Shown one piece after another: positions 6,013-62,155 of a DNA stretch of 64,000 nucleotides (position 1 is the first letter of the stretch; every line of letters starts with the position of its first letter). Where the stretch lies: positions 1 through 64,000 of the forward strand of contig NIVC01002878.1 in the NCBI GenBank assembly GCA_002269645.1. The letters run 5' to 3'. The notes below the pieces were generated by a model, which saw nothing but the letters and a program-made list of their open reading frames with translations, made no database searches and was not told the origin of the DNA. Made by a program: the position numbers and the translations under genes. The DNA is from Macrostomum lignano (taxonomy: Eukaryota).

Positions 6013-6699
6013 AGTGCTGGCGCCCCTGGTGCTGGCGCCCCTGGTGCTGGCGCCCCTGGTGCTGGCGCCCCTGGTGCTGGCGCCCCTGGTGCTGGCGCCC
6101 CTGGTGCTGGCGCCCCTGGTGCTGGCGCCCCTGGTGCTGGCGCCCCTGGTGCTGGCGCCCCTGGTGCTGGCGCCCCTGGTGCTAGCGCCCCTGGTGCTGG
6201 CGCCCCTGGTGCTGGCGCCCCTGGTGCTGGCGCCCCTGGTGCTGGCGCCCCTGGTGCTGGCGCCCCTGGTGCTGGCGCCCTGGTGCTGGCGCCCCTGGTG
6301 CTGGCGCCCCTGGTGCTGGCGCCCTGGTGCTGGCGCCCCTGGTGCTAAAGCCCCTGGTGCTAAAGCCCCTGGTGCTAAAGCCCCTGGTGCTAAAGCCCCT
6401 GGTGCTAAAGCCCCTGGTGCTAAAGCCCCTGGTGCTAAAGCCCCTGGTGCTAAAGCCCCTGGTGCTAAAGCCCCTGGTGCTAAAGCCCCTGGTGCTAAAG
6501 CCCCTGGTGCTAAAGCCCCTGGTGCTAAAGCCCCTGGTGCTAAAGCCCCTGGTGCTAAAGCCCCTGGTGCTAAAGCCCCTGGTGCTAAAGCCCCTGGTGC
6601 TAAAGCCCCTGGTGCTAAAGCCCCTGGTGCTAAAGCCCCTGGTGCTAAAGCCCCTGGTGCTAAAGCCCCTGGTGCTAAAGCCCCTGGTGCTAACCCCCC
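6013..6699 (+). repeat. 15-bp minisatellite: (GGTGCTGGCGCCCCT)n switching at ~6341 to (GGTGCTAAAGCCCCT)n
   Basis: Near-perfect tandem array read directly. Confidence 0.97.
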
Positions 6700-9665: not shown

Positions 9666-10089
<424 letters not shown>

Positions 10090-13100: not shown

Positions 13101-13322
13101 AGTGGACGGGGTGGGCTGGCGGCGCATGTTGGATCCGCGCAGCCGGCCTCTGCGATTCCGTTCACGACGCCTCTCAATCCGACGCCGAACGCTCCGCTTG
13201 CCCCGTCTCACTTTGGTGCTGACTTTTGCAGCCGCAGCCGGGGGGCGCGGCTCACCGAGCCGACCGAGGAGAGCGCAGTCTGATGCAGGTGCTGCTGCTG
13301 CGTCACCAGGAGGCGTCAGCAT
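10153..13322 (-). CDS. RTE endonuclease-reverse transcriptase single ORF, one -1 frameshift in a C-run near 11705
   Basis: APE motifs LATFNCRTL, LMLQEH, LGDLN, LDHVL, SDH; RT motifs GFR, FIDFLKAFDSV, GVLQGDTLAPFLF, YADD, FRYLG; RTE C-terminal RRLKLAGHVIR. The two ORFs join if one C is added in CTGCCCCTGAC. Confidence 0.92.
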
Positions 13323-13338
13323 TATACTTGCACATCAG

Positions 13339-13956: not shown

Positions 13957-14692
13957 AATGAAACTCTGGCTTCATCTTACCATTGAAAATTCATTAGGCA
14001 TCCATTAAAATCCATTACCCCGACGCGGGGGAATTTCAATGAAAAAACTGAGTAAAAATTTTCAATAGATAGGATGAGCATCATAAAAACAAAATTCAGT
14101 GAATCGCAACTCAATGCCGGTAAAATGCCACGCGTTTTGGGGATGGGGTGTTTTGTTGAGCCCCGACTCAAATTGGTGTTTTTCTATAAACTCATTCCTG
14201 CTCTGCGCTCCTCTCCGGCAGTCGGCCGGTCTTCCCAGTCGCTTTTTGGGGACTTTTTTAAAGGCCTAACAAGCGTTTTTTTGTAGTTCTGCTGTAAGCT
14301 GTCATCGCGTGCCTGTGCTCCATCGCTGTGACTGGGCGCAAAACTTCTCAACTTGTGCCTATGCAGGGAAGACGCGGCCTACCACTCTCCTCTCCTCTGC
14401 TCCCCTCTGCTCCCCTCTGCCTCTCCCTGAGTCTCTGAGCCTCATGGCTGCATGCCGCTCCCCCAGCAGAGCTGACCAATTGTTAGCAGTCAGTGCTGAG
14501 AATGCCACTTCTCTGCAGACAGCTTCCATCTGTCTTCTAGCAGACACAGCCACCCAGTACCAACCGTTAAATATTCTCTAAAACTTTGACGTCACCACAA
14601 GCATGCTTATCCACTTGGAGCAATGATAGCGTTTTGACGCTTTTGTTCTAAAAAACTTCTAAGCGCTTGTGGGCGCCTCTGAGCTGAGAGCA

Positions 14693-16710
14693 ATGTACTC
14701 ATTTCTCCGAGTCGCGCAGCGGGGCAAGTCCCGCCGGTGCAAAAAATCCGCCGCGGCAGCCGCAGCCGAAGCCGCCTGTCCCGAGCCGGACGATGCATCG
14801 AAGACCAACGCGAATGCGGCAGACAGCGGTACTACAGCCTCCGCTCCGCATCAACCCCATCATCAGCATCGGAGCGCAGTTGTCGACGGAGTTGCTGGCA
14901 GTTTACGCCGACAAGAATCAAGCTGCGACAGCGGCTGCCAGCGAGTCAGCATCAACGTGGCTGGAGAAATATTCGAAACTCAGCTGAGAACGCTGCGTCG
15001 ATTTCCCGGCACTCTGCTTGGCAACGACCAGAAGCGGCTGCAGTACTGGGACGCCAGTCGAGGACAGTACTTCTTCGACAGGCACCGCCCTTCGTTCGCC
15101 GCGATACTCAACTATTACCAGTCTGGCGGCAGGCTGCGTCGACCAAATGAAGTGCCCGAGGAGGTGTTCTACGAGGAGCTGAGATTCTTTCAACTTGACG
15201 AAGCCGTCATTCGCAGCTTCTTAGTGTCCGAAGGTTACTCGCAGCTCACGGTGCGGCACTGGAGTCAGCCGAGCTGGAGAACCAGCCTGTTCTCTGCGCT
15301 GCACTATCCGAAGACTACCAAGTTTGGCAGGCTGCTGGTGGCGCCCAGCGTGGCCATCATTATCCTGTCAGTGGCGCTGCACTGCCTGCACTCGCAGCCA
15401 GACCCGTGCACCGCGGCTGATGGCACCGGGGAGGATGGCAACAGGAGCTCCGCGGCTTCGACACGGTGAGTGTCTGGTAAAGCTTCTGGGAACACTGGTG
15501 CAACGTCTTCGTCGATATAATCCTACAACTAGCAAAGAGGTAGTTCTGCCTGTTTCCCTGACCCCTGAGCACATGCAAGCGCGCAGAACGCTTTCATACG
15601 CTCGCTCACAAAGGGTGTGCAGCAGCTCAGACTTTCTAATCGTCAAATATGTACACTCACTGAGCCTTGTCCTGATTGGGTGAGAATTGGACGACAATCT
15701 GGCCACGCAATCTGAAAATGCTATCTCATAAAAAAACACGATCTCAGCTTTTGTGGCTGAGGTGCGTCGTACTGTTTGGCCCTTCAGATTTTCCTTTAGA
15801 GACGGAATACCTTTTAAAAGGATTTAAAACTATAGAGTATGTATGGTTGGATCTATCAATTCAACCCGAAAGGGAAATCAGCAAGTATGTTATTTTTACC
15901 TGCGGAACTTGCCACCCCTGACGGGCCCATCACTGAAAAAAGCAAAAACATGCTCATTCGACCGCCTTCTGCAGCTACCTGCCGCTGGTATTCGGTCCCA
16001 AGCAAATGTCAATCAGCTCCAACAGTCTATGGTTTACCAGACTCGAATTCGCTTGCGTCTCTTGGTTCGCTCTGGAGTTCTGCATCAAAGTGGCCGTCTG
16101 CCCGCTGCCCCGAACTCACCTGGTCCGTTCCGCGGCTGTTTGGCTTGACGCAATCAGCTTTACACCCTACTTCATCTCAGTTGCCATGGAAACGTTGGGA
16201 AGATTCTGCGCCGACAGCGGCCTGATGCGAGCGTTGCACTTTAGCCATGTGTTGAGAATCTTCAAACTGTACCGCTACGTGACCGGGATGCAAATTCTGG
16301 GCAGGACGCTCAGGATGAGCATCCGGGAGCTCACCATGTTTCTGTTCTTCGTCGGCGTCAGCGTGGTTTTGTTCGCTTCGGCGATTCACCAAGCGGAAGG
16401 AGCGGTGCAGCGGCAGTTCCAGAGCATCCCGCACGCGTTCTGGTGGGCGGTGATCAGCTTGTGCACCGTCGGGTATGGAGACGCAGTGCCGCGAACCCTG
16501 GTTGGCAAGCTGATTGGTTCAGCGTGCGTTGTAGCCGGGGTCATGACGGTGGCCCTGCCAGTTCCTGTCATCGTCACGAACTTCAACAGCGTCTACAGGC
16601 GGACGGTGCTGTCAAAACGGGTGCAAAATCGACCAGAGTTGCTGCACAAAAAACTGCTACATCCGGTGAAATGCTGTGCAATCAGGTCGTCTTCGGACAT
16701 TGTTGAGTAG
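14693..16710 (+). CDS. Shaker: Shaker/Kv1-family voltage-gated potassium channel; exons 14693-15465 and 15975-16710
   Basis: T1 domain RVSINVAGEIFET...YFFDRHRPSFAAILNYYQSGGRLRRP; pore SIPHAFWWAVISLCTVGYGD; S6 ALPVPVIVTNF; GT-AG intron 15466-15974 keeps the frame (CG|C = Arg). Confidence 0.95.
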
Positions 16711-18148: not shown

Positions 18149-21100
18149 TCATTCAACAACATTGGGCATTAGCGGTTCCAGCACAGCCCTGGCTGGTCCG
18201 TCTGTACTCAAATCCGGACTGCTATCGGACAGGTCGAGCACTTCGGGCAGCCTCCAGGCCTGGCTCTGGTCCCGCTCTCGACAGGACTCCACGCTCAGGC
18301 CTGGCTGAGACATGGCCGCCGTGTGCCGCAGGGTTAGGCACTGGCCAGTGGCCGGGTGGTAAATCTGCCTGTCCCCGGTGTCCTCGTACCGCCAGCTCTG
18401 GTATTTGCCGTAGCCTCCATAGCCTTGACAGGCCACGAGGGTCAGGGCGCGACCGTTGTAGTGCAAGCAGTCTGTTTCACGGATCAGCTCGCCGTGCTCC
18501 GACAGAGTCCAGACTTGATTGCCGCCCTGTAGAGTAATAGTAGTGTGGTTAGCGTTTTTAATGATATATTTATTATTTTCATTTAATATTAATTTTTATG
18601 TTTCCTGCAATTGATTGATTGATTGACATAAATGAGCAGGGGAAAGAAAAGGACCCGGATACGGATGGAGAAGACCCGGATAGGGATGGAAAGGACCCGG
18701 ATAGGGATGGAAAGGACCCGGATATGAATGCATGGAGAGGATCTTGATATAGAAGAAAATGATCTAGATATGAATAGGATATCTAGATATGGAAGCACGG
18801 GGCACTAATAAGAGACCCAATACGGCACTATAACACTAATACTAGACCCAACGATGTTGTAATAAAGCCACAATATATTTTTATGTTGATATCAGGGATG
18901 TTAGATAGGAAATATAGATACTGACAACTCATTTTTAGTGTAGCGGGAAAGAAAAAGATCGAGAGCAGTGATTAGATTCACATTCCAATACCTTGTTGTG
19001 GCACCGCTGCAGGCTGACTTCAGCGCCTCCTTGTCGCCTGATTCCGTCAAGGCACCAGGCATCTCCGCCAACTAGGCGGAAGGACTGAATGACCCCGATT
19101 CGCGTGCTGTTGCCCCATCTCAGCTGCTCAGGGTAGACGTGCTCCAGGTACCAGCGAAACGAATGGCAGTTGAGCCGTTTTCGGAGAGCCATACGATCAG
19201 AAACATCGCCATAATCGCCCAGCAGGTTGTTAAACTGGCGATAATAAATATGCTTGAAATTATCCATCCACACTTCGGCCATTCGAATAGTGTTCCGCTT
19301 GAGAACGTCGCCGGACCCTTCGCCCCAGGAGTAGGGGCTTCGGGTGCGAAACACGTGACCGATGATGGAGCAGGGCAGAATCTCGATGCGACCGCCGCAC
19401 ATCCAGATGCGGAAACTGCAAGGAATTTTTGTTTGGATACTTTTGTTTGAATGTGAGTCAGGCACAACACTCGAGCAACTTTTAAAGGGTGCACAGTGGT
19501 TTTGACTTTCTCATCGTTTGGTTGGCTGGTAGGTACACACGCTCTCAGGATCCTCATACAGTAGGATCAGCTGGGATGAGATTTGACGAGTGATTCGGGT
19601 TAAAATTGGCTGGATAAAAATGTGGATGTACTTTTAAAAAATCATTATCTCTGTATACTAATAGATTTTCATTAGATAAGTTACGAATACGTACATCTAT
19701 GCTCACCTGATTTCAAGATTCTCCGCGCCCCAAATCTCCATGCCTTCGTCGTATCGACCAAGCTCGTCAAAGTAGCTCCTATCGATGCTGAAAAGTCCAC
19801 CGGCCATGGTTGGCGTCGGCACCGGCTGAGCCAGGCTGCTGAGATTCTGTCGGATTCTCTGCGGCATCGACTGCCAGCTGAAGCTCATGGTGTTCCAGCG
19901 GAATCCACCAACAACCATGCGCTCGTTGGCGACGTGGAAGAAGCCGAAGTTATCTTCGTTGATAACGTCGATGTGGGGCACGGCGACATTTCGTCGATCG
20001 TCTCGGATGCGTTGGAGCAGCGGCTCCAGCCAGCCGTCGGTGCACTCGATGTGCGAGTCGAGGAAGGTCAGCGTCTGCCCGGTGGCCACAGACGCGCCAA
20101 CCAATCTTGATCGAATTAAACCTTCGCGTTTCTTGTTGCGCAACAACCGTACGCGACCGAGTTTTGCCAGGTAATCTTCAAGGGGTCGGCCTAGGTGAGG
20201 TCGATTAGAGAAGTCGTCTACTAGAATGATCTCGTGCAGCAAAGCAGGCGGTGCTCTGTCCAGCACAGAGTGGATGCTGCGCAGAAGGACGCTCCAGGCC
20301 TCGTTGTGCATGCACATGATGACGCTGGTGTTTGGCAGCTGCTCAATCGAGTACTTTCTGTTTCGGCAGTCCTTTGGACGGTAATCCTGATAATTATAAC
20401 AAACGCTAAGTTTTTTTGTCATTTAAGAAGCTTTCTCAGAATCTATCTGCATTATCATGTTTCGCTAAAAAACTATTGCCATAAAGGTGCTACAAATCGG
20501 TCAAGTATTCAGTAATAACACCCAGAAAAGTGCTCAGTCTAGTTAATTGGCCCTAGCTAGAAAAATACTTCATCTATCGATGCTCAAAAAAGCTACTCTG
20601 ACAAAAAATCGAAGGTAAAAATTACCTGCAACCTGCGTTGCACACTGATTAGTTCGCTGGCGTATTCGTTGAACGCATTCTCCTTCCAGCCTCGCTCAAA
20701 TCGTTCGAGTTGGCGCTGATCCAGCAGCTGCTTGTTGACTACCACGCTGGCGCCGAGCTCGCCGGGACCTGTCGGGGTCGGCAACTTGCTGGTGACTTGC
20801 TGGGTTGTCGTCGGCGTTGTTTCAGTCGACGTCTTGCTTGTTTTTGCAGTTACGGACGAAGTTTTGGTCGTTCCTGTGGTTGTCTTTGCTGTCGCTGTCG
20901 TCGATTCCTCCGTTGTTTCTTCGGCTGTTGTTGTCTCAGTGGCAGCCTTCCTCAAATCTGCCAGACGTTGCCTGAATTGCTCATTTTTACGTTTCAACTT
21001 AGCCATTCGGTTACGGATGTCTGCATCGATTGCCGAAGCAACATCGTATCTGCTCTTCTTAGTTAAGCGGGATTTATCTGCTGAATCGGCATTCCACAGC

Positions 21101-22962: not shown

Positions 22963-23648
22963 ACCAGGGGCTTTAGCACCAGGGGCTTTAGCACCAGGGG
23001 CTTTAGCACCAGGGGTTTTAGCACCAGGGGCTTTAGCACCAGGGGCTTTAGCACCAGGGGCTTTAGCACCAGGGGCTTTAGCACCAGGGGCTTTACCACC
23101 AGGGGCTTTAGCACCAGGGGCTTTAGCACCAGGGGCTTTAGCACCAGGGGCTTTAGCACCAGGGGCTTTAGCACCAGGGGCGCCAGCACCAGGGGTTTTA
23201 GCACCAGGGGTTTTAGCACCAGGGGCGCCAGCACCAGGGGCGCCAGCACCAGGGGCGCCAGCACCAGGGGCGCCAGCACCAGGGGCGCCAGCACCAGGGG
23301 CGCCAGCACCAGGGGCGCCAGCACCAGGGGCGCCAGCACCAGGGGCGCCAGCACCAGGGGCGCCAGCACCAGGGGCGCCAGCACCAGGGGCGCCAGCACC
23401 AGGGGCGCCAGCACCAGGGGCGCCAGCACCAGGGGCGCCAGCACCAGGGGCGCCAGCACCAGGGGCGCCAGCACCAGGGGCGCCAGCACCAGGGGCGCCA
23501 GCACCAGGGGCGCCAGCACCAGGGGCGCCAGCACCAGGGGCGCCAGCACCAGGGGCGCCAGCACCAGGGGCGCCAGCACCAGGGGCGCCAGCACCAGGGG
23601 CGCCAGCACCAGGGGCGCCAGCACCAGGGGCGCCAGCACCAGGGGCGC
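22963..23648 (-). repeat. 15-bp minisatellite, same family as 6013-6699, opposite orientation (left part of an LTR-split array)
   Basis: AGCACCAGGGGCTTT then AGCACCAGGGGCGCC units. Confidence 0.97.
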
Positions 23649-24665
23649 TGATGTGTTCCTTATTACCTGCCTTCGATAATCAAGGAACAATCACTTCTAG
23701 CTCTGTAGCTAGGCAACCCAGTAAATCAAATGAAGGTATGTATTACCTTGAGTCCTGTCTCGGAGAGCTCTTCCGTGTTCTGTAGTTCTCGGACTTCCTT
23801 TGACCCTCGAACTTCGTTAGACGTCTATGTTCGTAACCAGGTCCGCGTTCCTTTACGTCCACTGAAGTCGTTTCCGGCCGGTATCTGTAGTGCGGACCAA
23901 TGGGAAGCTTCCAAATCAACAATGGGTACCCTGCGCCAAACTGCGGTTTAACATAAGCCTACTCCTTCTAGCAGTGCCTCTATGCACTCTAGGTATAGCT
24001 CCGGAAACCTTTGATAGTCTTCTAAGATCTATCAGAGGCAGTCCTTCTGGAGACTGCAACCAGTAGAGTCTAAACAGACTCAGGAGTCTCAACAGACTCA
24101 AACTAAACTCCAACGAGACGTCTCAAAACACAGGCGCAAATGAGTAAGGCTTACCGCAAGAACTCGACGAGTCTTCTGTAGGAAGTCCTGTAGTGGCTTC
24201 CTCTTCGGAGCTCTTCTCCTTCCGGAGGAATTGTGGCTCCGGGTCCGTTCCGGACCACTTGTATTTATAGACGTTCAGACCTCTCTCGAGGTCGTACATC
24301 ACTGTCTTCGCAAATGTCAAAGGGTCAAGATTCGGTGGCTGTCAAGCATGACAGGGTAGAAAGTTGCGCAACTAGTCTACTGTAAAAGCGCATGATTGGT
24401 TACCGTAGCTGGTAGACTTTGATTGGTTCATCCGGGTGCAACCCAAATGATGACTTGAAGGTGGGGTTTGAATTGACAGTTGTTGGTCGCACGTGATTGG
24501 GTGATTTCTAAAATTAGCATGCTCGAGGTCTCTCTCTTCCTATTGGTTAATTCGAATATATGTATGGTTCAGCGCATATCCTTATACATGCTCCTCAAAT
24601 TACTACTATTTAAGTAGTACGTTAACAATTTTAAATAACTTTTCTGGGAGATATAATACTCTACA
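23649..24665 (-). mobile_element. Solo LTR (1017 bp) with 4-bp TSD GCGC, related to the LTR at 45100-45951
   Basis: Termini TGATGT...CTACA on the + strand; GCGC at 23645-23648 and 24666-24669; 23649-24270 aligns by eye with 45100-45739; TATAAATA on the - strand at 24262-24269. Confidence 0.92.
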
Positions 24666-25481
24666 GCGCCAGCACCAGGGGCGCCAGCACCAGGGGCGCC
24701 AGCACCAGGGGCTTTAGCACCAGGGGCGCCAGCACCAGGGGCGCCAGCACCAGGGGCGCCAGCACCAGGGGCGCCAGCACCAGGGGCGCCAGCACCAGGG
24801 GCGCCAGCACCAGGGGCGCCAGCACCAGGGGCGCCAGCACCAGGGGCGCCAGCACCAGGGGCGCCAGCACCAGGGGCGCCAGCACCAGGGGCGCCAGCAC
24901 CAGGGGCGCCAGCACCAGGGGCGCCAGCACCAGGGGCGCCAGCACCAGGGGCGCCAGCACCAGGGGCGCCAGCACCAGGGGCGCCAGCACCAGGGGCGCC
25001 AGCACCAGGGGCGCCAGCACCAGGGGCGCCAGCACCAGGGGCGCCAGCACCAGGGGCGCCAGCACCAGGGGCGCCAGCACCAGGGGCGCCAGCACCAGGG
25101 GCGCCAGCACCAGGGGCGCCAGCACCAGGGGCGCCAGCACCAGGGGCGCCAGCACCAGGGGCGCCAGCACCAGGGGCGCCAGCACCAGGGGCGCCAGCAC
25201 CAGGGGCGCCAGCACCAGGGGCGCCAGCACCAGGGGCGCCAGCACCAGGGGCGCCAGCACCAGGGGCGCCAGCACCAGGGGCGCCAGCACCAGGGGCGCC
25301 AGCACCAGGGGCGCCAGCACCAGGGGCGCCAGCACCAGGGGCGCCAGCACCAGGGGCGCCAACACCAGGGGCGCCAGCACCAGGGGCGCCAGCACCAGGG
25401 GCGCCAGCACCAGGGGCGCCAGCACCAGGGGCGCCAGCACCAGGGGCACCAGCGCCAGAGGCGCCAGCAACAGGGGCGGCA
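24666..25481 (-). repeat. 15-bp minisatellite (right part of the LTR-split array)
   Basis: (AGCACCAGGGGCGCC)n resumes in phase after the TSD. Confidence 0.97.
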
Positions 25482-39646: not shown

Positions 39647-40781
39647 TTAAAATTTTTTTTTGACTAGATGCTTGGCGATCGGGTACGGCTTGCACTGAAT
39701 AGGTTCCGTGTGCGGTAGAAGCTTGATCTCTTGCTTGATGTCTTTAGCTCGTCCGATGTCGTAGTCATGGTGGCAGAAGGCGTCGTTGTACTTCCACAAC
39801 AGTTGTCGAACTTTCTTCTTTTGCTGTTCCGTAATCGGGCTGTCGTCCAAGTTTATCTTCTTTTGGAATTCCTCTTCCGTTAGTCGTGGAGTTGTTTGTT
39901 CGATCAGCATTACCGACGCTTGGGTGTTGAGATGACCAATACACATTCCTTGTCGAAGGTGAACCATTTCCGTGTTTGAATTGAATATTTGTACGGGCAG
40001 TTGTTTGTCTTTTGCTACCAGTACTAGAGCTGTAGGCATCATAACTTGATGTTTAGCCATGACTCTTCTGTGCGGATCAAATATCATTGCTTCATCTGCC
40101 GCGCTAGCTGGTTGCTTTCGCTCTGACCCAGCATGCGCTTTCAGGCTGGATGATGACGTCTTGCTGCAGAGTTACTTTCGGTAGTACGCGAATCTGGTTG
40201 ATCAGCGGTTGCTCCACGGTGTCGATCCTGAACGTTTGCTTGTTGAAGTCGAAGGTCAAAGGTAGTCGAAGCTGCTTGAACGTGTCGATTCCAACGATGA
40301 CGTCTTGGTTTGGTAGTCTGTCGATGATGTACGTCGGGACCGTCAGCTGTTTATTAGCAATTTTCAAGTCGATATCTGCTTTTCCTAGGATGTTGAGTGA
40401 ATGTCCTCCTGCTCCTGCAACTGCGATTGCTGCTGGTCGTACCGCGAGTCGTAGCTTGTTGCATAATTGTTGCGAGATGACTGTGATCGAGCTGCCTGAA
40501 TCTAGCAGTGCTCGACATGGCAAGTTGTTGACAATGACCTGAGCCATTGCGGCTGCATTCTCGGTGCTGTTGGTGTTGTCGGAATCGATGGATACATTCG
40601 CGTTGATAGTGTCGGCTGTCCTTGAGTTTCTCGACGTGCATCCTCTGTCAATTCCAAGTTGTTGTCTTCTTCCCTTGGTGTCTTCTGCATGATGGCGTTC
40701 ACTGTTTGTTTCGCTGTAGGACAAGTGTTGCTGAAGCATCGTACTATCGACGAGATGATAAAAATCGCCGTAACTATCCAT
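39647..40781 (-). pseudogene. pol 5' part: aspartic protease and start of RT, frameshift near 40105, truncated near 39650
   Basis: VIVNNLPCRALLDSGSSITVIS and DVIVGIDTF (protease); KKVRQLLWKYNDAF...IKQEIKL...PIQCKPYPI (Gypsy pre-RT region). Confidence 0.88.
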
Positions 40782-42862
40782 ACCACACAGGCGCTGTAGA
40801 AGATGAATCCTTGATATAGACTGCCTCTTCCGTTAAGCAGCTCCAAGAAGCTGTTTGTCCAAAACAATTGGATGGCGTTGTCCATAGACACTAGGACCGG
40901 GAAACTGCTTGTGCCTGTTCCCTTATTCTTTCGTGTGAAGAGTTGACGAATCATCTTTCGTTGAGTGATGAACGCTTGCAAGAAGTCGTTGATAGTCCAT
41001 CCAGGTGTTATCTCATCGAGTTGGATATCGGCGAATGGCGTGTACTTCGTTCTGTTGAACCGTATCTTCAGATCGTCCATATCGTACGTTTCATCGACAA
41101 TCACTTCTGGTTCTGTGATGTTCGCTGTCGTTCCTGTCGTTTTAATGACGTGTAGTGCATCGTCCAGTTGATAGTAGTTTGCTGCAGTGGTGCAAGGTCT
41201 TGGTATGGCGGTGCCAACGATGATGTTGTGTACCGTGTCCAAGAATCCTTGTATCCTTTTGCCTTCGTAGAATGCCTCAATTCTAGGCTTGTCGTAGCAA
41301 GTTGTTGAAGTGTTCGACGGCAAGATGTTGAAGTGCTGTATCGGCGTGCACTTGTATATCAGGAGATGTCCATATATCGGAATTGCCAGAACATCTCTCA
41401 TTCCAGTGATCTTGCGAAATGTCATCGTAGGGTTAACATAGTAGTTCTGTCTTGCGTAGTTCAAGTTGATTGCGTGCATTTTGCAAGTTAGCTGAACCAG
41501 TGATCGATGTAAGTGGTTTAGCTGGTTATGCAGGTTGTGATCCAGCGCAGTGATCTTTGCTGACAGTAGTCGGTTCGACACCAATCGTGGACGTTCTATG
41601 TCGCGTCGTTGCCTTTCTTGTTGTTGATACGTCCCGTTTATGATCGCCAGGAAGGTTCGTTTGTCGTCCTCCTTTACATAGACTGGTATTTCTTGCTCCG
41701 AAATGAATAGCGTCTTGTCCGTATCCTTACATTTGAGTTCCTGTTCGACCGGCTTCTTTTGAAACGTCAAGGCCAAGTCTCCTGCTTTTGTCAAAAACGT
41801 ATTCGACAGTAGTCCTCCTTCCACTGTGTGATACTTTTGAAGCTTGCAGTCAATTTCCGGCTCCACTTTCCATGCGAAAAAATATTGTCGTGACTTGTAC
41901 GGTTCCTCATAGTGGGAGTGTGCTCTGTGCACAATCTGCCATCGATTGTCTTGATGATATGTTGGACTCAGTGGTAGACTGTGTAGTTCTTCCTTCCGTA
42001 GAGTTGGTGTTGGACACCATCCTTCACTGTATCGACATTCGCTTAGTTGCAGCTGTAACGATTCCATTTTCTCGTACAGATTGTAGTAGAATGGTACATT
42101 CCTGATCAAGTAGCTGTTTCATGCCATATATTCTTTCCATTTTCCGAAGAAGTGAATGTATCGACCGTTGGCTGAATTCTTTGTTCTGAACAGCTGTGCG
42201 TTGCCGACCTTCTCATCTGGTTCCAGTTCACCATCCTTTGAAAATAGTGTTTGGTTCCATTGTAGGCATTCCGCGTGTGACACATGTAGCTCATGTTGTC
42301 GAAATCGGATCCAGTTCCATTGTCCGCGCCAAACTTTTTCCACTAGGTGCTTGTCTCTGAAGCACACTATTCCGTGTTGTCGGTGCTTCTTGATGTTAGC
42401 CTTGTAGAGATCGAGTGTAATCTTCTTTGGCTTCGTCTGGTTTGTCTTGAAGTAGCTGCATTTGATGTCGGTTGGTATCTTGTAGATCATCGGTTGGATA
42501 TGCGCATCCGTTAAACAAATCATTGGCTTTTCCGTTGCCGTTGCTTTGGCGACTACTGCTATCAGTAGTATCACGATGATCCAGAATAGCCAGTTTTTCC
42601 ACTTCTTGGACTTTGCCGTTGTCTTTGCTGGCATTGGCCGCGATTGCCATTCGTTATTTTCCATGTCCGCATCATATCCTTCCGGTTGTTCCATTGGCTG
42701 TTTCAGGCGGAAGGCTTCTGATTTGCTTTGCTCTTTGGTTATTTCAGTATTTTCGTCTGCAGCTTCTTCCGATGTTTCGGTTGTTTCGCTCCATTGCGTT
42801 TGGTATCTTTTCTCTGTCTTGTAGTCGACCGTTTGAATGTAGGCTTGGCCATTTCGCTTGTA
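40502..42862 (-). CDS. Envelope-like type I glycoprotein (class III / gB-like fusogen), in frame with gag, one internal TGA at 42119-42121
   Basis: Internal signal WLFWIIVILLIAVVAKA (~42592-42544); Cys-rich ectodomain with several N-x-S/T sequons; furin site RQRR (41614-41603); TM segment FIFYSACVVWIVTAIFIISSIV (~40800-40740). Confidence 0.85.
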
Positions 42863-44398
42863 TCATATCTCGTAGCATTCGTCGCTGTCGGAACTCAGCT
42901 TTTCTTTCATCCGTTCTTTTTCTATTTCTTCATCTTTCAATTGTATTTCGTAGCCTTGATCGCTGTCGGAACTTAGATATTCGGCTCTCCGTTCTTCCTG
43001 CATTCCTTCTTCGGCTGGGCAGTTGTTTGTGTCATTGCGCGTCTCACAGTCATGATCGTTGTTGTAACTCATACACTTTTCTTCTTCTTCCTGCCTTTCG
43101 TCATTCACTGTTGTCGTTTCATGGTTGTTTTCTCTGTCGGTCTTCATCTTTTCTTCGTTGCCGGTGTCGCTCTCTGCCTCCTCCCTCTTCTTGTGATTTA
43201 CTTTCTTCCTGTTTTCTCTGCTGTCTCCGGTGGTCTCTTTTGTTTCGATCATGTCGGTTTCATCTGTGTTGTCAGTGTTGTCCTTGTGCGTCGTCTTCTT
43301 TTCGATCAAGCTGATGTCAAGTTCCGGGACTGTGAAGTCCATTTCCAAGTCGTCGATTGTGAACACTTGCTGTTCATGCTGCTCATTTTCCGGTGTGTAC
43401 GTGATGGCATTCGCGTATCGTGGCATTGCTTGTGTCGGCTGTTTTTGTGTGTACCTGATGTTGCGTGGCCTGTAGCCATCATTTCTGAAGCGGCCGTTAT
43501 TTCCGAAGCGGCCATCATTTCCGGAGCGTCCATCATTTCCGAAGCGTCTCATGCCTTGTTGTGGGCGATTTTGATATTGCTGCCATGGTTTCTGCGGCTT
43601 TTGATTGTTGAATATCTGTCGCGGCTTGTAGTATCTTGTTGACCAATGAGGACAATTAATCTGATAATGTCCTTCTCGTCCGCAGTAGTAACATCTGGCT
43701 GAGGCTCGTTTATTTCGTCTTTTTTGTTCGGCGGTAGCAGCTGTCTGGTGCTGCATTAACTTGTTTAATTGCTGCGTCAGTTTCTGCACTTCATTGTTGC
43801 CTGTCGTCATTAATGGGGCACTGGCTTCCCACTGCATTCCGCACCGCAAAAGGTCTTCTTCGGTTTCGATATTTTCACGCAAAAGTCTATCCCGAAGTGA
43901 CGGCTGTGCGTTGTTTATTACGTGCAAGATGAGGTTTTGTTCGCGATCCATCAATCGCTGTCTTTCTCTGGCGGCCAATTCTGCCGCACCCAGTGGCGGT
44001 TGGTCCGCAGCTTGCAGCGGTGGCTGATGCAGTGCCTTAATTATCTGGCGGATATCGTCCACAAAGGCGAGGAAGGATTCCGTTGCTTGCATCCTTCTGT
44101 TATGTAACTTGTGCAGCAGCACTGATCTGTTTGTGCCGCAACGGTTGAAATTCGCGCACAGTTGAATGATTAGTGCTGGATAATTTTGCTGTGTTGCCGC
44201 ATCCAGCTTGCCGTAAATTTCTCGTGCAGTACCTTGGAGAAGAGGTGGCAGCAGCTGTGCCTTCTCTGGATTTTGTAGGTGGTATTCCCTACATACCAGG
44301 TCAAAATGGTCGACAAAGGTGTTAAAATCTTTCTCCATCGAGAAGGTACCGACCGTTTCTTTGATGTTTCTGTGTACCGTTGGATTGCGCCGCGCCAT
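42863..44398 (-). CDS. gag: Gag (capsid plus single CCHC knuckle) followed by an acidic low-complexity linker
   Basis: CYYCGREGHYQINC zinc knuckle; capsid-like FNTFVDHFDLVC...LLQGTAREIY. Confidence 0.9.
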   Translation of the reverse strand: MARRNPTVHRNIKETVGTFSMEKDFNTFVDHFDLVCREYHLQNPEKAQLLPPLLQGTAREIYGKLDAATQQNYPALIIQLCANFNRCGTNRSVLLHKLHNRRMQATESFLAFVDDIRQIIKALHQPPLQAADQPPLGAAELAARERQRLMDREQNLILHVINNAQPSLRDRLLRENIETEEDLLRCGMQWEASAPLMTTGNNEVQKLTQQLNKLMQHQTAATAEQKRRNKRASARCYYCGREGHYQINCPHWSTRYYKPRQIFNNQKPQKPWQQYQNRPQQGMRRFGNDGRSGNDGRFGNNGRFRNDGYRPRNIRYTQKQPTQAMPRYANAITYTPENEQHEQQVFTIDDLEMDFTVPELDISLIEKKTTHKDNTDNTDETDMIETKETTGDSRENRKKVNHKKREEAESDTGNEEKMKTDRENNHETTTVNDERQEEEEKCMSYNNDHDCETRNDTNNCPAEEGMQEERRAEYLSSDSDQGYEIQLKDEEIEKERMKEKLSSDSDECYEI

Positions 44399-45079
44399 GC
44401 TGTTGATAGGATAGAACGGTAGTTCAAGATCTGGATCGATTTGTAACGGATCGTCCAGTGTGGTGTTTGCCTCGGAATAAACCTCGACTGTAACGAATTG
44501 TATTGTGGCGTCGATCTGTTATTCGCTGGCCTCGAATGCGGACGTGTGGCTTGCTGCCACTGGTTGTCCTCAAATGAACTTGTTCTGTTCGCTTGCTGAT
44601 TTCGCACTTATGCGGCGTCCCGCAAAGTCTATCTTCAAGTTGTACTTGTCTTCTTGCTTTGCAAAGGCTTTTTTCTCTCTTTTGTCAATTAACTCCGCTC
44701 TCCACGAAGTTTCAATTAATTTCGGTTTTGTTTCAGTTTTGTGCCGACAAAAAGTTTCAGTTATTTTTTTGTTTGTTTTTAGCTTGCGTCGACAATTCTT
44801 TTATTTTCGGTTTGTTTTCAGTGTACCGACGAAGTTAATTTCAGTTTTGTTTTAAACTGACACTTGCTCGAGCTCGTTTAAACAAAATTTAACACGCGTG
44901 CTCACTGTACTCAAATTGACAGGTGCTCAAACCTGTACACCAAAATTTTACTCGAGTTTCAAAACGTACGGACTTCAAAAGTGTTAACTCTAACACGTGC
45001 GCGCAAAATTAATGAATTCGCTCTGTCGTCACTTTACAATAGCTTGATCAGGGCTATTGCTCAAAGTTTGAGTAGTGCC

Positions 45080-45097
45080 GAGAAAGCGAGATCACCA
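45080..45097 (-). promoter_or_regulatory. Primer binding site TGGTGATCTCGCTTTCTC
   Basis: Begins with TGG, 2 nt after the LTR end (...ACATCA AT TGG). Confidence 0.8.
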
Positions 45098-45099
45098 AT

Positions 45100-45951
45100 T
45101 GATGTGTTCCTTATTACCCGACTTTCGATAATCAAGGAACAATCACCTCTAGCTCAGTAGCTAGGCAACCCAGTAAGTCAACAGAAGGTATTCAATTACC
45201 TTGAGTCCTTATGAGATATCTCTTCAATGTTGATCTCGGGTAGATCTCGTCTGTAGTCTCTTCTGACTGTCGCTCGTAGGTCGGGTCCGAGTCTTCTTTT
45301 CTTCTTCAAATAGTTCAGGCCGGATTCTGTTGCTCGGACCAATGGGAAGCTTCCAAATTAACAATGGGATCCCTGCGCCAAACTGCGGTTTGAATTAAGC
45401 CTCCTTCTTCTAGCAGTGCCTCTGTGCACTCTAGGTATGGCTCCGGAAACCACTGATAGTCTCCTAAGATCTATCAGGGGCAGTCCTTCTGGAGACTGCA
45501 ACCAGTGGAGTCTAAACAGACTCAAGAGTCTCAACAGACTCAAATAAACTCAAGTCCCACTAGACTTGAGCGAGACGTCTCTAACACAAGGGGCGCAAAT
45601 AAGGAAGGCTTACCGCAACAACTCGACCGAGTCTCGATTGACTTGGTGATCAGGAAGTCCTCCTAAGGCTTCCTCTTCGGAGCTTCTCCTCTCGTCGGGA
45701 GTTGGCTCCTGGTCCGCTTCGGACCGCTTGTATTTATAGGCGACTTTTTTGATCCAAAATAGCAACATTACAATTCACGTGTTGCGCTAAAAGGGGAAAA
45801 TGGCTCATGGCGTATTTTTCTGGTAACATCTTTTCCTGGTAGCGTGATTCATTCAAAGCTTTAGGCGCACATGCGTGTACTTACTTACTTATAGTAGCAT
45901 TATACGATTATCTTCTTTTTACCTTTTTAACGGGAGGTAGAACACTCTACA
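45100..45951 (-). mobile_element. 5' LTR (852 bp) of the env-bearing element
   Basis: TGTAGAGT...ACATCA termini identical to the solo LTR ends; TATAAATA on the - strand at 45731-45738. Confidence 0.9.
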
Positions 45952-52916: not shown

Positions 52917-55900
52917 ATGTCAGAATTTAAAGAAAATAAAAGTGAGCATGGCCTACTAGAGAATAATCAAAGCAGGTCAAAGCAATTGGAGGTAAGCATT
53001 GTCTGTTAGGTCAGCTTGTCATTTGATATTTAGGTTCACCAAGTATTCAATATTGATTCTCTTATTGATCCCTAGTAGAATCTACAGTGGCCATACTTTA
53101 TCTTTCTCTCAATTCCTTCTTGTCTTAGTGGATTCTACAATCTCATTTAGTGATTCTCTTATCTCTTATGGGGGTTGTAGCCCAGTGGTTAGAGCATTCT
53201 AGACTCACAACTTAAAGGTTGGGGGTTCGATTCTTGACTCACTTGGAACAATTTGTGTTCTTAAGCAAGACACTTTACTCTACATTACTTCAGTTCACCC
53301 AGCTATAAAATGGGTGCCAGCATTAGCTGGGGTAATTGAGGGTGTGTGTGGCCTGTGGCGACCCACCAGTCCTTGGACTGAACAGCTGTATGCAGCCTTC
53401 AGATGCATTGAGGAATAGGGCATTAGGGCAGGTGTAATAAATTATAATTTATTATCTAACTGTAGATTCTCTAATTTCACTCATGGATTCTCTCATCTCA
53501 CCCTTTGTTGGATTCTATTATCTACCTGTGGATTCTCAAATCTCACCTGTAGATTCTCTAATCTCATCCTGGATTCTCTTATCTACCTGTAGATTCTCTA
53601 ATCTCACATGTGGATTCTCTTATCTACTTGTAGATTCTTTAATCTCACCCTGGATTCTCTTCTCCCTAGAAATCTATTCTCATCTATGAATTCTCTTATC
53701 TCAGCCTAGATTCTTCTGTATTATTCTCTAGACTAAGAGTGACTCTAAATTACGACCTCACGCCTTCAGGCCTTCAATCATCACTGTCAACTGGAGCAGC
53801 TGCCAACCGAGTTGCTAACCAGGATTTTATCCGAGCTAGACCAGGCCACCCTTGGCCGATGTGCTCAGCTGAACAAGCAATGGCGTCAGCTCACTGCTCA
53901 GCCCCTTCTATGGCGCAACAGTATTCGAATTCGAGCTCAAACCATTATTGACAGTCCAACTCCGGTTAACCAGCTGTCGTATTGGACATCTTTCTGTTCA
54001 TCGGCCAGTATTCAACAGCTGCATTTTGAGTTATGCAGCTCGGATGCTGAGTACAACAGGCGCAGTGTACAACTGCTCAACACGTTTCTCAGCAACTCGC
54101 CCTGTCTGCAGGCTCTGACTATCCAAGGATTCGATGGAATGCCTACTGAAGAGCAAAATCCGCTAGTAGTTCTGGGGCAATCCTGTTCTCAGCTTTGTAC
54201 TTTAAAATTGATTCGTTTTGGCAGAGATCTGCTGACTGAGGAATCCGTGACCGCTTTAAACGAAGGCTGTTTGGAACTTGTCGATTTGGAGTTTCGTCAG
54301 AGTGTCCTAGCTGGACCGGACTCCAATCCACTGCCGCTACCTCAGCTGGCATCTCTGTTTAGCCGGTTGACGCGGCTGAACTTTCTGCATGAAGCTACGT
54401 TTCCTTTGTTTCTGGACGAAATGGTTGATGGTACTAGTATTCGCGAGCTTGTCTTGAATGCCAGCGATCTGTGCTATGATGGTTGGTGTTAATTGCTATT
54501 TTTTTCATTACAAATGCTTTATGAGATTTTCTAACCTAGAGTTTTTTTTAAACTAATGTACTCTTATATGATCATTATCATAATCTAGGGAATTCCTCAT
54601 CTGGCAGCTCTAGGATTTCCTATCGGGAAATTTCCCACCTAAGCGATATCCCATCTAGGATATTTTTTCACCTAGGAAATTTCCTACCTCTTGGATTTCC
54701 AACTAAGGGATTTCCCACCAGGGATTTTCCACCTAGGGGATTTACAACTACGGGATTTCCCACCTAGATGATTTCCCACCAGGGATTTTCCACCTAGGTA
54801 ATTTCCCACCAGGGGATTTCCCACCTAGGGGATTTCCCACCAGGGATTTTCCACCTAGGTAATTTCCCACCAGGGGATTTCCCACCTAGGGGATTTCCAA
54901 CGAAGGGATTTTCCACCTAGGTAATTTCCCACCAAGGATTTTCCACGTAGGGGATTTCTAACTAAGGGATTTCCCACCAGGGATTTTCTACGTAGGGGAT
55001 TTCCCACCTACGGGATATTCCACCTAACCTGTATGATTTTTCACCCAAAGTATTCCACTTACGGAACTTCCCCTCCAGAAAATTTCCCACTCGGGGGATT
55101 TCCTATCTCTGGGATTTCGACCTAATGGATTTCCCACCTAGGGGATTTCTCACCTAACCTGTATGATTTCTCATCTAGGGGATTCCCACTTAGGGGACTT
55201 CCCCTTTAGGAAGTTTCCCACTCGGGGGATTTTCCACCTTGGTAGTCCCCATTTAAGGGATTTCCCACCAAATGAGATATTTTTGAGAAAAAAAATATAT
55301 TCCCTTAACGCAGAACATTTGCACCGGCTGCTGTCTCTGGCTCCCTACCTGACGACTCTGAAGCTTCAATTCGGCGAGTTCACCGAAAGTCACGCGGGTC
55401 CTCTGGCTTCCGGCTGTCCGAATCTGCAGTCTTTAGTGCTGAAAAATGTCTCGCTATGTATGATTAGCGCAACCGGTTTTGTGGAACTGCTCAATGGCTG
55501 TCCCAAGTTGCGGCGACTCAAGATATCCAGTCATGACGAGCTGGACTCAGAGTGCTATCGCAAAATTGTTGCTAATCTACCCTCGGGCATTGAGGATTTG
55601 AAGCTGCCGAGTTTTCGGAAACTGAGACAGCCGGACTTACAATCGCTACTGCCGCGAGGTCTCAAGAGATTTGAGCTGCCAATTCAAGAGCTTAAACATG
55701 GCTGCATGCGGGGCTTGCTGGTTGGATTGCGACCATGCTCTGGTGAGTAGATTTTTCCAATTTCTCCTATCTCACGCTAGATTCTCCCATCTCACCCTAG
55801 ATTCTCCAATATCACCCTAGATTCTCCAATATCACCCTAGATTCTCCAATATCACCCTAGATTCTCCAATATCACCCTAGATTATCCTATCTCACGCTAG

Positions 55901-57097
55901 ATTCTCCCATCTCACCCTAGATTCTCCAATATCACCCTAGATTCTCCAATATCACCCTAGATTATCCTATCTCACGCTAGATTCTCCCATCTCACCCTAG
56001 ATTCTCCAATATCACCCTAGATTATCCTATCTCACGCTAGATTCTCCTATCTTACTCTTGATTCTCCTATCTCACCCTAGATTATCCTATCTCACCCCAG
56101 ATTTTCCAATCTCACTCTAGATTCTTTTATCTCACCCTAGATTTTTAATCTCACTCTTGAGTTCTCACATCCCACCCTAAATTCTCCTATCTCACGCTAG
56201 ATACTCCTATCTCACCCTAGATTCTCCCATCTCACTCTAGATTCTCGTATTTCACGCTAGATTCTCCTATCTCACGCTAGATACTCTTATCTCACCCTAA
56301 ATTCTCCTATCTCAACCTAGATTATCCTATCTCACCCTAGATTCTCCTATCTCACGCTAGATACTCTTATCTCACCCTAAATTCTCCTATCTCACCCTAG
56401 ATTATCCTATCTCACCCTAGATTCTCCAATCTCACTCTAGATTCTTCTATCTCACTCTCGATTTTTAATCTCACTCTTGAGTTCCCACATCCCACCCTGA
56501 ATTCTCCTATCTCACCCTAGATTATCCTATCTCACCATAGATTCTCCAATCTCACTCTAGATTTTCCCATCTCACCCTGAAATTCATTTATCTAAACGCA
56601 AAGATTTGGGAATCGCTGGCTCACCCATCGCGCAAATCCCTCACTCGCCTACTTCAGACCTGACCAATCTGAACATCAGCGACTGCGATGACAAACTGCT
56701 GTCGGATTTGCTCACCCTGCTGCCCCGCCTGCGTCGCCTCCGCCTCACCAACTGCAATCGCCTGAGCGGCAAAGTGTGGGAAAATCTGCTCAAACGTGGA
56801 GCCACTCAGCCACTGCCTGAGCTGCACGAATTCGCGGCATTGAAGTTTAGCGATGCCAGTCTAAATGACGAATTCGTGGCGAAAATGTGCCACACTCCGG
56901 TTGCTAGGGGCCTCCGCAGGCTAGAGCTGAGCGACTGTCGCAGCCTCACTGACGCTGCCTTGGTCAGCATCGCCGGGGCCTGCCCGCACCTGACTGACCT
57001 GAAGCTGTCGGGTTTACAATTTAACAATTTTGCAAACGGATTGGATCAGTTTCTGAACTCGTATGGAGGTCGGCGAGTCCGCGTGCACAGCGACTGA
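52917..57097 (+). CDS. F-box/leucine-rich repeat protein; exons 52917-52991, 53770-54481, 55314-55742, 56604-57097 (~569 aa)
   Basis: F-box LEQLPTELLTRILSELDQATLGRCAQLNKQWRQL...LW; Cys-containing LRRs (CPNLQSLVL, CPKLRRLKI, LRRLELSDCRSLTD, CPHLTDLKL); GT-AG introns with phases 0,1,1 give an open frame. Confidence 0.9.
53170..53430 (+). mobile_element. tRNA-derived SINE in F-box gene intron 1
   Basis: A box TAGCCCAGTGG, B box GGTTCGATTC, then a CORE/Nin-like segment GCAAGACACTTTA...CAGTTCACCCAGCTATAAAATGGGT. Confidence 0.7.
53455..53730. repeat. Degenerate ~20-bp minisatellite (TAGATTCTCTAATCTCACCC-like)
   Basis: Same family as 55765-56580. Confidence 0.75.
54595..55275. repeat. Short-period intronic repeat (GGGATTTTCCACCTA / GATTTCCCACCA variants)
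   Basis: Direct reading. Confidence 0.88.
55765..56580. repeat. 20-bp intronic minisatellite (TAGATTCTCCAATATCACCC variants), ~40 units
   Basis: Direct reading. Confidence 0.95.
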
Positions 57098-60581: not shown

Positions 60582-62155
60582 TCAGATATAGTGAGGAGCC
60601 TCCTGCCCAGTCAGCAATCTGAAGATCGATGTCGGCATGGTTTTCATGTGAATCTCGCCAACCCCGGAGGCCAGCATAGCAACAATGCGGTCGTGCGGAG
60701 TGGCCACCACAGACTGGCCGTTAATCTCGATAATCCGGTGCCCGACTCGAACCCCGCCCCGCTCGGCAATGCCGCCTCTCAGCAGGGAACAAATCACGCC
60801 ATTCTGAACGCTGAATCCCAACTGGAATTTCACATCCGGCCGTCGGATCAGGACTTCAACAACTGGCGGGCAGGACACCAGGCGAACTTTCACAGCCGTG
60901 TTGGATTTGCAAGCTCGAACATGCTGCTGGCACGTAGCCAGGGGCAGGCCAACCAGACTGACTCCGTTGATGGCAAGCATCTGGTCGCCAATGTTCAGCT
61001 GGCCGCAGCGAGCGGCAGGACCGGAGGGCTGCATGTTGGCCAGGACCACAGTGGGCAGCATGGAGCCCCAACCGCTCTCCACTATCACTACGCCCAGCGG
61101 TTCGCCTTTGGTTTTGGGCACTACAACTTCTTTCTGGGTTTCAGATCGGCTGAATAGAGCCAGTTCCTCGCCAATGATGTCCTGCTGGTTGAGCACATCT
61201 TGGTAGTCCATGTCTCTGAGCTGGTAGCCGGGGTCTTCGATGCCGTTGGCGCGTAGGAATTCCATGTAGGCCACTTGGAAGGCCTGGCCAATCGATTGGG
61301 CAACCAGCTGGGCCTGCGAGTTGTTTTAAATTTGGGCCAGGAAATTTGGTTGGCAATATGCGCTGAATGCACTACTGATAGGGGCAAAGAGGGGTTTTGT
61401 GCTTATTTTTATTGGCAAATGCTGAATATTTTTCGGAAATTTTGAAAATGTTCCTATTGTAAAGGGCAACTGAGGATCTGGGATGCTGGCCCAGAAACTG
61501 AGGATCTGGTAGGCTGGCCCAGAAACTGAGGGTCTGGGAGACTGGCTTAGCATCTGAGGATCTGGGAGGCTGGCCTAGAAACTGAGGATCTGGGAGGCTG
61601 GCCCAGCAACTGAGGATCTGGGAGACTGGCCCAGCAACTGAGGATCTGGGAGGCTGGCCTAGAAAATGAGGGTCTGGGAGGCTGGCCTAGAAAATGAGGG
61701 TCTGGGAGGCTGGCCCAGCAACTGAGGATCTGGAAGTCTGGTGGCGCTGCAAGGGAGGATCTGGGAGGCTGGTGGTTCAGTAACTGAGGATGTGGGACCA
61801 GAATCAAAACGCACCATAAAACCAATCAGGCTAAACACACACAAAGGGTCATTCACCTCGTCAGTCTCAAACACGTGGCAGACAATTTTTGTCTGTCGCC
61901 GTTCGCTCTGCTGCACGAAGCGCCGCCTGGCCATGAACACCAGCACGTTGCCGATGTCGGCGATGTAGGAGATGGTCTTGAGCGCATGGTCCATCATGAT
62001 CTCCTGCAGGTTGGTGTTCAGCACCATGATCTTCTCGGTTGAGATGAACAGGTCGACTGGGACGCAGGGCTGATGCTCCCCGTCTGGTGCCTGCGGGACG
62101 GTGCGCGCGGAGGAGCTCCGTGAGCCTCACAGCATTGCAGCAGTAAGGGAGATGC

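What the first reader, a model, noticed from the sequence alone, without database searches (positions are those of the whole stretch)
39647..45951. Gypsy-type retroelement with gag-ENV-pol order: envelope fused behind Gag, ahead of protease
Seen: LTR, PBS, Gag with CCHC knuckle, acidic linker, internal signal peptide, glycoprotein ectodomain and TM all lie in one frame (44398-40502, 1298 codons, two internal TGA), followed by protease and the RT start. Knowledge: retroviruses, errantiviruses and env-bearing BEL/Pao elements place env after pol. A single knuckle, the pre-RT motif and the 4-bp TSD of the related solo LTR point to Gypsy rather than BEL. Inference: a possibly undescribed endogenous virus lineage making a Gag-Env polyprotein cut by signal peptidase, as alphavirus structural polyproteins are.
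Basis: partly seen in the sequence, partly recalled or inferred. Interest (0 to 1): 0.92.

Follow-up and report, generated by a model that had tools for sequence, protein, structure and literature searches.

The report
Known flatworm gag-env-pol retroelement, broken copy
This is a broken, truncated copy of a flatworm retrovirus-like element whose herpes-gB-type envelope gene lies between gag and pol; that gene order and apparently this family are already published, although how its single long protein is cut and assembled remains untested.

Summary
The order gag-env-pol is real and family-wide: 81 of 84 family RT matches in the genome have env upstream, none downstream. The env folds like herpesvirus gB and is under purifying selection. 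It is not undescribed. Chary & Hayashi (PMC13524379) report gB-type GAG-ENV-POL Ty3/gypsy elements in nematodes, bryozoans and flatworms. Their supplement lists a Macrostomum lignano element whose LTR length, primer site and LTR spacing match this family.

The window copy has two private stops, a 79-nt gap before protease, a second frameshift and a 3' truncation. Other copies read Gag-linker-signal-gB-TM-PR-RT-RH-IN in one frame of about 2,440-2,500 residues.

Most likely mechanism (inferred): one polyprotein threads the ER membrane twice, so Gag hangs from the internal signal peptide and Pol from Env's cytoplasmic tail.

Details not found in the text I saw: a tRNA-Val primer, and a 3' accessory ORF with two tandem RING fingers. 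Verdict: already known kind and probably a catalogued family; modest interest.

The parts
45100..45951 (-). 5' LTR, 852 bp, TG...CA
45086..45097 (-). Primer-binding site complementary to the host tRNA-Val(AAC) 3' end (12 of 18 contiguous here, 14 of 18 in six other copies, 18 of 18 in L037)
43652..44398 (-). Gag: capsid domain from residue 1 (no matrix domain in front), then one CCHC knuckle at 43652-43693
   Evidence: model pLDDT 80; listed PDB hits are retroviral CA, Arc and PNMA2 capsids but weak, E 0.01-0.06; zf-CCHC
42614..43651 (-). Basic post-NC segment and long acidic, low-hydrophobicity linker (~350 residues); private TGA at codon 512 (42863-42865)
   Evidence: dN/dS 0.36-0.50
42536..42613 (-). 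Internal signal-peptide-like segment (basic n-region, hydrophobic core, small residues before the ectodomain); cleavage inferred, no signal-peptide predictor run
   Evidence: hydropathy 2.4; same character in the divergent subfamily and distant relatives
40811..42535 (-). gB-type (class III) fusogen ectodomain; furin-like RQRR at 41603-41614; private TGA at codon 760 (42119-42121)
   Evidence: PF24664 E 1e-4; model of another copy pLDDT 78, herpes gB best PDB hits E 2e-21, TM ~0.45
40733..40810 (-). Env transmembrane anchor
40551..40732 (-). Env cytoplasmic tail, cut short by a private 79-nt gap at 40550/40551 that shifts the frame
40284..40541 (-). Aspartic protease (in frame with env in other copies, out of frame here)
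39660..40283 (-). PR-RT spacer with a second frameshift near 40107-40120, and the start of RT; the element is truncated here (no RT core, RNase H, integrase, accessory ORF or 3' LTR)
   Evidence: the 1 kb beyond matches 0 of 39 family loci
23649..24665 (-). Solo LTR of a related subfamily (1017 bp, 78% identical over 666 nt), 4-bp target duplication, inserted in a 15-bp tandem array

Best explanation
A dead, 3'-truncated copy of a multi-copy Ty3/gypsy element of a flatworm (Macrostomum lignano by protein identity) that belongs to the published gB-type GAG-ENV-POL 'errantiviruses'. SHOWN: full-length copies hold one frame Gag(CA-NC)-acidic linker-signal-gB ectodomain-TM-tail-PR-RT-RH-IN, then one or more small tandem-RING ORFs, between near-identical LTRs with a tRNA-Val primer site. 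INFERRED mechanism (about 0.6): one polyprotein is made from genomic RNA. The internal signal peptide opens ER translocation and the TM stops it. Signal peptidase leaves Gag anchored on the cytosolic face by its C-terminal signal (like flavivirus capsid before prM; recalled) and Env as a type I protein carrying Pol on its tail. Furin cuts the ectodomain. Env trimerisation clusters the protease, which frees Gag from the linker and Pol from the tail, and cores bud into gB-bearing membrane for cell-to-cell spread. The long acidic linker is the flexible tether that a matrix-less Gag needs.
For: Order: 81 of 84 family RT matches have env upstream and 0 of 84 downstream. One frame: CCHC to integrase stop-free in 8 of 9 copies fetched at length, which were mostly chosen for long open frames; signal to protease stop-free in 21 of 30 env loci; same in a subfamily only 64% identical in env. 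Selection: env dN/dS 0.05-0.11, Gag up to 0.09, RT up to 0.04. Fold: herpes gB; nyami-, chu- and rhabdo-like G. Ty3 is the best solved RT relative, E 6e-63. Among 55 ectodomain relatives, 10 hold CCHC before and a protease motif after env in one chain, 2 of them from the same host. A nematode protein (P0030) holds env-PR-RT-IN in one chain. No slippery heptamer or canonical splice site is shared by three subfamilies in crude scans. Published match.
Against: No protein, particle or strand-specific RNA data were seen, so topology, cleavage and infectivity are inference. One frame implies 1:1:1 Gag:Env:Pol, and I found no mechanism for excess Gag. A Met lies within 22 residues before the hydrophobic core in 29 of 29 loci with a detected signal, so a separate Env start is possible. 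The Gag fold match is weak. The match to the catalogued element rests on features; I did not see the authors' sequence for it.
Confidence: 0.8

Rival explanations
1. The single frame is only the genomic layout. Env is made from a subgenomic, spliced or trans-spliced RNA starting at the Met just before the signal peptide, and Gag or Gag-Pol from RNAs that skip env, as in retroviruses and insect errantiviruses.
For: Met within 22 residues of the hydrophobic core in 29 of 29 loci with a detected signal; this would solve the stoichiometry problem; spliced env is the norm in Drosophila errantiviruses (recalled).
Against: In divergent copy L037 the nearest Met before the hydrophobic core is 72 residues from the ectodomain start; no donor or acceptor is shared by three subfamilies in a crude scan; frame continuity at both env junctions is kept across subfamilies and in distant relatives.
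Confidence: 0.25
2. The gB protein no longer makes extracellular infectious particles. It serves as an intracellular membrane scaffold or short-range cell-fusion aid, and the element copies itself within germline cells.
For: Herpes gB needs partner glycoproteins and the entry route of these elements is unknown (PMC13524379 discussion).
Against: The whole ectodomain, a furin-like site at the same position in both subfamilies and the TM are kept under dN/dS 0.05-0.11, and the model retains the full gB-like fold.
Confidence: 0.2
3. One reading: a Gag-Env polyprotein ending at 40502, with Pol in a separate frame, in an undescribed lineage.
For: True of the window copy's sequence.
Against: The stop follows a 79-nt gap that 29 of 29 other loci lack; the arrangement is published.
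Confidence: 0.03
4. A BEL/Pao element, or a one-off rearrangement or assembly chimera that placed env before pol.
For: Weak DUF1759 hit on Gag, E 0.0012, below cut-off; one ectodomain relative (P0050) is a BEL/Pao protein with env after integrase.
Against: No Peptidase_A17 or DUF5641 in two full-length copies; RT closest to Ty3; order constant in 81 of 84; contigs of other public runs bridge gag-linker-signal and TM-protease.
Confidence: 0.02

Closest known systems
Platyhelminthes_Rhabditophora_Mlig_errantivirus_2 and the other gB-type GAG-ENV-POL errantiviruses (Chary & Hayashi, eLife 2026, PMC13524379)
   Same: Host species, gB-type env, GAG-ENV-POL order, LTR of about 860 bp, identical 12-nt primer site at position 865, second LTR about 9,727 nt after the first.
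   Different: The main text has no occurrence of 'polyprotein', 'splic' or 'frameshift', nor of 'RING' or 'accessory', and lists the primer as 'others'. Here the single frame, tRNA-Val primer and tandem-RING 3' ORF are spelled out. The window copy is a damaged member, about 89-93% identical to other copies.
Nematode endogenous retroviruses, NERVs (Sacco et al. 2022, J Gen Virol, doi 10.1099/jgv.0.001739)
   Same: Env before pol (as cited in PMC13524379). A continuous gag-env-pro-pol ORF, a nyamivirus-like glycoprotein and small extra ORFs are recalled from the abstract; the paper was not held.
   Different: Nematode hosts. In my quick RT tree the two Macrostomum families are sisters (SH-aLRT 99) and the other env-before-protease rows form a separate branch; one origin is neither shown nor excluded. 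Several relatives have much shorter NC-to-signal linkers, about 50-150 residues.
Drosophila gypsy/ZAM errantiviruses and env-bearing BEL/Pao elements (Anakin, Atlas)
   Same: LTR element plus a captured viral fusogen.
   Different: Env lies after integrase as a separate or terminal gene; Drosophila env is F-type (spliced expression recalled).
Flavivirus and alphavirus structural polyproteins (recalled; analogy only)
   Same: Capsid followed by an internal signal sequence and an envelope protein in one chain.
   Different: Unrelated viruses; here the replication enzymes would hang from the fusogen's cytoplasmic tail.

Membership tests
Ty3/gypsy (Metaviridae) | LTRs with TG...CA ends and a tRNA primer site | tested here: met
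Ty3/gypsy (Metaviridae) | Pol order PR-RT-RH-IN | tested here: met
   two full-length copies; the window copy lacks RT core, RH and IN
Ty3/gypsy (Metaviridae) | RT closest to Ty3/gypsy | tested here: met
   Ty3 RT E 6e-63, ahead of caulimovirus, foamy virus and MLV; no named-clade reference tree was built
Ty3/gypsy (Metaviridae) | 4-5 bp target-site duplication | tested here: met
   4 bp at the related solo LTR; one case only
gB-type GAG-ENV-POL errantiviruses (PMC13524379) | HSV/gB-type ectodomain between a signal or TM segment and a TM | tested here: met
gB-type GAG-ENV-POL errantiviruses (PMC13524379) | env between gag and pol, in multiple near-identical copies | tested here: met
   81 of 84; three copies 99.95% alike, though assembly redundancy may inflate copy number (PMC12801592 passage)
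Mlig_errantivirus_2 (catalogued element) | LTR length, primer site sequence and position, LTR spacing | tested here: met
   supplement row against L038
Mlig_errantivirus_2 (catalogued element) | Direct alignment to the authors' deposited sequence | not testable with these tools
   the name occurs only in supplement files 2 and 6, without sequence
NERV (Sacco 2022) | Continuous gag-env-pro-pol ORF (feature recalled) | tested here: met
NERV (Sacco 2022) | Nematode host, one clade with nematode elements (feature recalled) | tested here: not met
   flatworm host; separate branch in a quick tree, monophyly unresolved
BEL/Pao (Belpaoviridae) | Peptidase_A17 and DUF5641 domains, env after integrase | tested here: not met
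Infectious endogenous virus | Enveloped particles that enter other cells | not testable with these tools
   no particle or protein data

The most novel reading that the evidence does not exclude
These elements are enveloped reverse-transcribing viruses built from one double-membrane-spanning polyprotein: a matrix-less Gag tethered by a C-terminal signal anchor, and Pol packaged and switched on as the cytoplasmic tail of a trimeric gB fusogen, with a tandem-RING E3 ligase in the usual env position to counter host defence or to trim the 1:1:1 stoichiometry. This would be an assembly route unlike that of retroviruses or gypsy. It could be observed in a laboratory flatworm whose copies have near-identical LTRs. 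I found no test of it in the papers I could search.
Probability: 0.4. Interest if true: 0.6.

Novelty: already known. Interest (0 to 1): 0.24.

Why it matters
As a discovery of gene order it does not matter: the order and very probably this family are in print. What remains is a mechanism question. If Gag, Env and Pol come from one membrane-threaded chain, Pol packaging, protease activation and membrane targeting would all be solved differently from retroviruses. M. lignano, with many recent copies under strong selection, would be a practical animal in which to watch it. The tandem-RING 3' ORF and the tRNA-Val primer are small additions to the annotation.

Tried and rejected
Expression: no RNA holder listed (18 of 24 listed runs from 6 studies hold half or more of the words, none on record as RNA). 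All four runs laid were contigs, so they say nothing on strand, level or absence of splicing. No joint skipping env from gag to protease was among those listed. One joint (L038 935-5817, runs X1 and X3) is not GT-AG within 12 nt and is unexplained.

No shared slippery heptamer, and no window of unusual synonymous conservation after allowing for many windows (best p about 0.01). No shared canonical splice signals (crude patterns). No heat-shock elements in three LTRs. The Gag homologue search gave one hit and the Gag PDB sequence search only weak knuckle hits.

The RT tree is the quick one only, with 69 rows and half of the 119 background proteins left out for time; no one-clade test was run. 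Two RING regex scans failed to match and were replaced by an alignment. Sacco 2022 was not held. Searches of earlier findings returned nothing. Only 9 copies were read at near full length, so counts of whole open frames are not a census. No complex prediction was run: a gB trimer would exceed the size limit and pass by likeness to solved structures.

Full report
VERDICT. The gene order is real and family-wide, but it is published, and the family is very probably catalogued. The window holds a damaged copy. What is left open is how the single long protein works.

1. The observation. The minus-strand frame 44398-40502 has 1298 codons and two TGA, at codons 512 and 760. It holds a CCHC knuckle at 236, an acidic linker, a hydrophobic stretch at about 603-621, a Cys-rich domain with RQRR at 929, and a TM at about 1197-1222. 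Pfam gives zf-CCHC, a weak Monjiviricetes fusion hit (E 1e-4, below cut-off) and, in another frame, aspartic protease. The LTR is 852 bp with TG...CA ends. The primer site matches the 3' end of a host tRNA-Val(AAC): 12 of 18 contiguous bases here, 14 of 18 in six other copies and 18 of 18 in L037. The related solo LTR at 23649-24665 has a 4-bp target duplication.

2. The window copy is broken. The genome (G000, 764 Mb) gave 83 matches to the env piece. All 29 other env loci fetched lack the window's 79-nt gap at 40550/40551 and both stops. The stop at 40502 and the out-of-frame protease are therefore lesions. There is a second frameshift near 40107-40120, and the copy ends near 39660, before the RT core.

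3. The family. TM and protease share one stop-free frame in 27 of 30 env loci, and signal through protease in 21 of 30. Of 9 copies read at near full length, most chosen for long open frames, 8 are stop-free from CCHC to integrase; five run 2,439-2,498 residues from the first Met. Pfam on two of them gives PR-RT-RH-IN, with CCHC and env in front in L037. The ninth, L038, is broken in the linker, where all four public runs differ from it by several 1-2-base indels; assembly error is the likely cause (inference). Env lies upstream of 81 of 84 family RT matches and downstream of none (matches are not copy numbers). LTR pairs are 99.6-100% identical over the 273-471 nt held for three copies, which points to recent insertion. 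Pairwise dN/dS over four comparisons is 0.05-0.11 for the ectodomain, up to 0.09 for Gag, up to 0.04 for RT and 0.36-0.50 for the linker; some values are saturated for the divergent copy. Patchy dS suggests recombination between copies. The host is Macrostomum lignano by named proteins: P0002 is 84% identical over env and 100% over RT.

4. What the proteins are. The ectodomain model of one open copy (pLDDT 78) matches herpesvirus gB best in the PDB (E 2e-21, TM about 0.45) and nyami-, chu- and rhabdo-like glycoproteins among viral models. RT-RH is closest to Ty3. Gag models as a helical capsid from residue 1; its listed hits are retroviral CA, Arc and PNMA2, all weak (E 0.01-0.06). No matrix domain precedes it. 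Of 55 ectodomain relatives, 19 have CCHC upstream in the same chain, 16 a protease motif downstream and 10 both; 2 of the 10 are from the same host. One relative is named from the nematode Panagrolaimus, one is a second M. lignano family of 2,852 residues, and one is a BEL/Pao protein with env after integrase. A quick RT tree joins the two Macrostomum families (SH-aLRT 99) and leaves the relation to the other env-before-protease rows open.

5. An extra gene. Full-length copies carry one or two small ORFs after integrase, where env normally sits. Three aligned versions, 29-42% identical, keep all sixteen Cys/His ligands of two tandem C3HC4-type RING fingers. Database support is weak but uniform: TRIM31 RING E 6e-4, Pfam below cut-off, nearest atlas clusters mostly viral RING proteins. 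The ORF has 151 matches in the genome, many cut short by stops shared among copies. An E3-ligase role is inference. The window copy lacks this region.

6. Mechanism. Shown: one frame, two hydrophobic segments flanking a gB ectodomain, and selection on all of it. Inferred from general membrane-protein biogenesis: the internal signal starts translocation and the TM stops it. Signal peptidase then gives a Gag anchored by its C-terminal signal and an Env with Pol on its cytoplasmic tail; furin cuts the ectodomain; trimerisation brings protease monomers together; protease frees capsid and enzymes at the membrane. This accounts for the missing matrix, the long flexible linker and the conserved frame at both junctions. 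It leaves the 1:1:1 ratio unexplained. The main rival is subgenomic or spliced expression: a Met precedes the signal in 29 of 29 main-subfamily loci but not closely in L037, and no shared splice or slippery signals were found. I put the polyprotein model near 0.6 and this rival near 0.25.

7. What is in print. PMC13524379 (seen: abstract, section 14 whole, first parts of sections 5 and 9, passages, and supplement rows from files 2, 3, 5, 6 and 7; figures not seen) states that elements in Nematoda, Bryozoa and Platyhelminthes carry only gB-type ENV arranged GAG-ENV-POL. It lists nine flatworm elements, among them Mlig_errantivirus_2: gB-type, 16 copies, LTR ending at 863, primer site at 865, second LTR at 9727. 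L038, 89% identical to the window element, has the same 12-nt primer site at 865 and the same LTR spacing. The main text does not use 'polyprotein', 'splic' or 'frameshift', nor 'RING' or 'accessory'; the preprint text has no 'fused' or 'in-frame' (passages). For Sacco et al. 2022 I saw only the citation and citing sentences; that it reports a continuous gag-env-pro-pol ORF in nematodes is recalled. PMC12801592 (passages) classifies M. lignano LTR families with no occurrence of 'envelope' and notes assembly redundancy. PMC5408684 (passages) covers other extra ORFs and has no 'RING'. Ten paper searches found no test of processing and no RING ORF for such elements. Most subscription journals, figures and the authors' repository lie outside what I could see, so these details may be in print.

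8. Score. Already known; interest 0.24. The boldest reading left (one membrane-threaded polyprotein with Pol on the fusogen's tail, plus an E3 ligase in env's usual place) has probability about 0.4 and would merit about 0.6.

Noticed in passing
L033:1031-1708 (-), L033:328-957 (-), L037:8584-9165 (+): Small 3' accessory ORFs with two tandem C3HC4-type RING fingers after integrase; one or two per element, fast-evolving, some subfamilies truncated; also matches on contigs without a listed family RT match.
   Followed up: partly
P0005, P0058, P0059; G000 contigs C270, C247, C1672, C4280: A second M. lignano gag-env-pol family with open frames of about 2,860 residues, 41% identical in RT and sister in the quick tree; the paper's supplement lists only one element for this species.
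   Followed up: partly
L038:935-5817: Joint skipping 4,881 nt from mid-env to the end of integrase in contigs of two runs; not GT-AG; may be a deleted non-autonomous copy.
   Followed up: partly
L038:6629-7343: Several 1-2-base indels in the linker where all four runs differ from this locus; probably assembly error that splits gag from env-pol in this copy.
   Followed up: partly
G000 C1130, C2121, C87, C669, C2447: Several family copies cluster on the same contigs, 10-15 kb apart, possibly tandem arrays or a piRNA-cluster-like locus.
   Followed up: no
L031, L033, L039, L040 pairwise: Synonymous divergence jumps from about 0.04 to 0.8 between neighbouring domains, suggesting frequent recombination among copies.
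   Followed up: partly
window 22963-25478: Solo LTR inserted in a 15-bp GC-rich tandem array; a related inverted array lies at 6022-6693.
   Followed up: partly
window 10156-13334 (-): Non-LTR retrotransposon with endonuclease and RT in two frames, flanked by GATA-type microsatellites.
   Followed up: no
window 14663-16707 (+), 19706-20422 (-), 53749-57094 (+), 60585-61325 (-): Host gene pieces: voltage-gated potassium channel (BTB plus ion transport), glycosyltransferase family 2, F-box/LRR, PDZ.
   Followed up: no
P0003: A 3,074-residue predicted protein that fuses host-like domains with part of this element (99% identical over part of env); probably a chimeric gene model.
   Followed up: no
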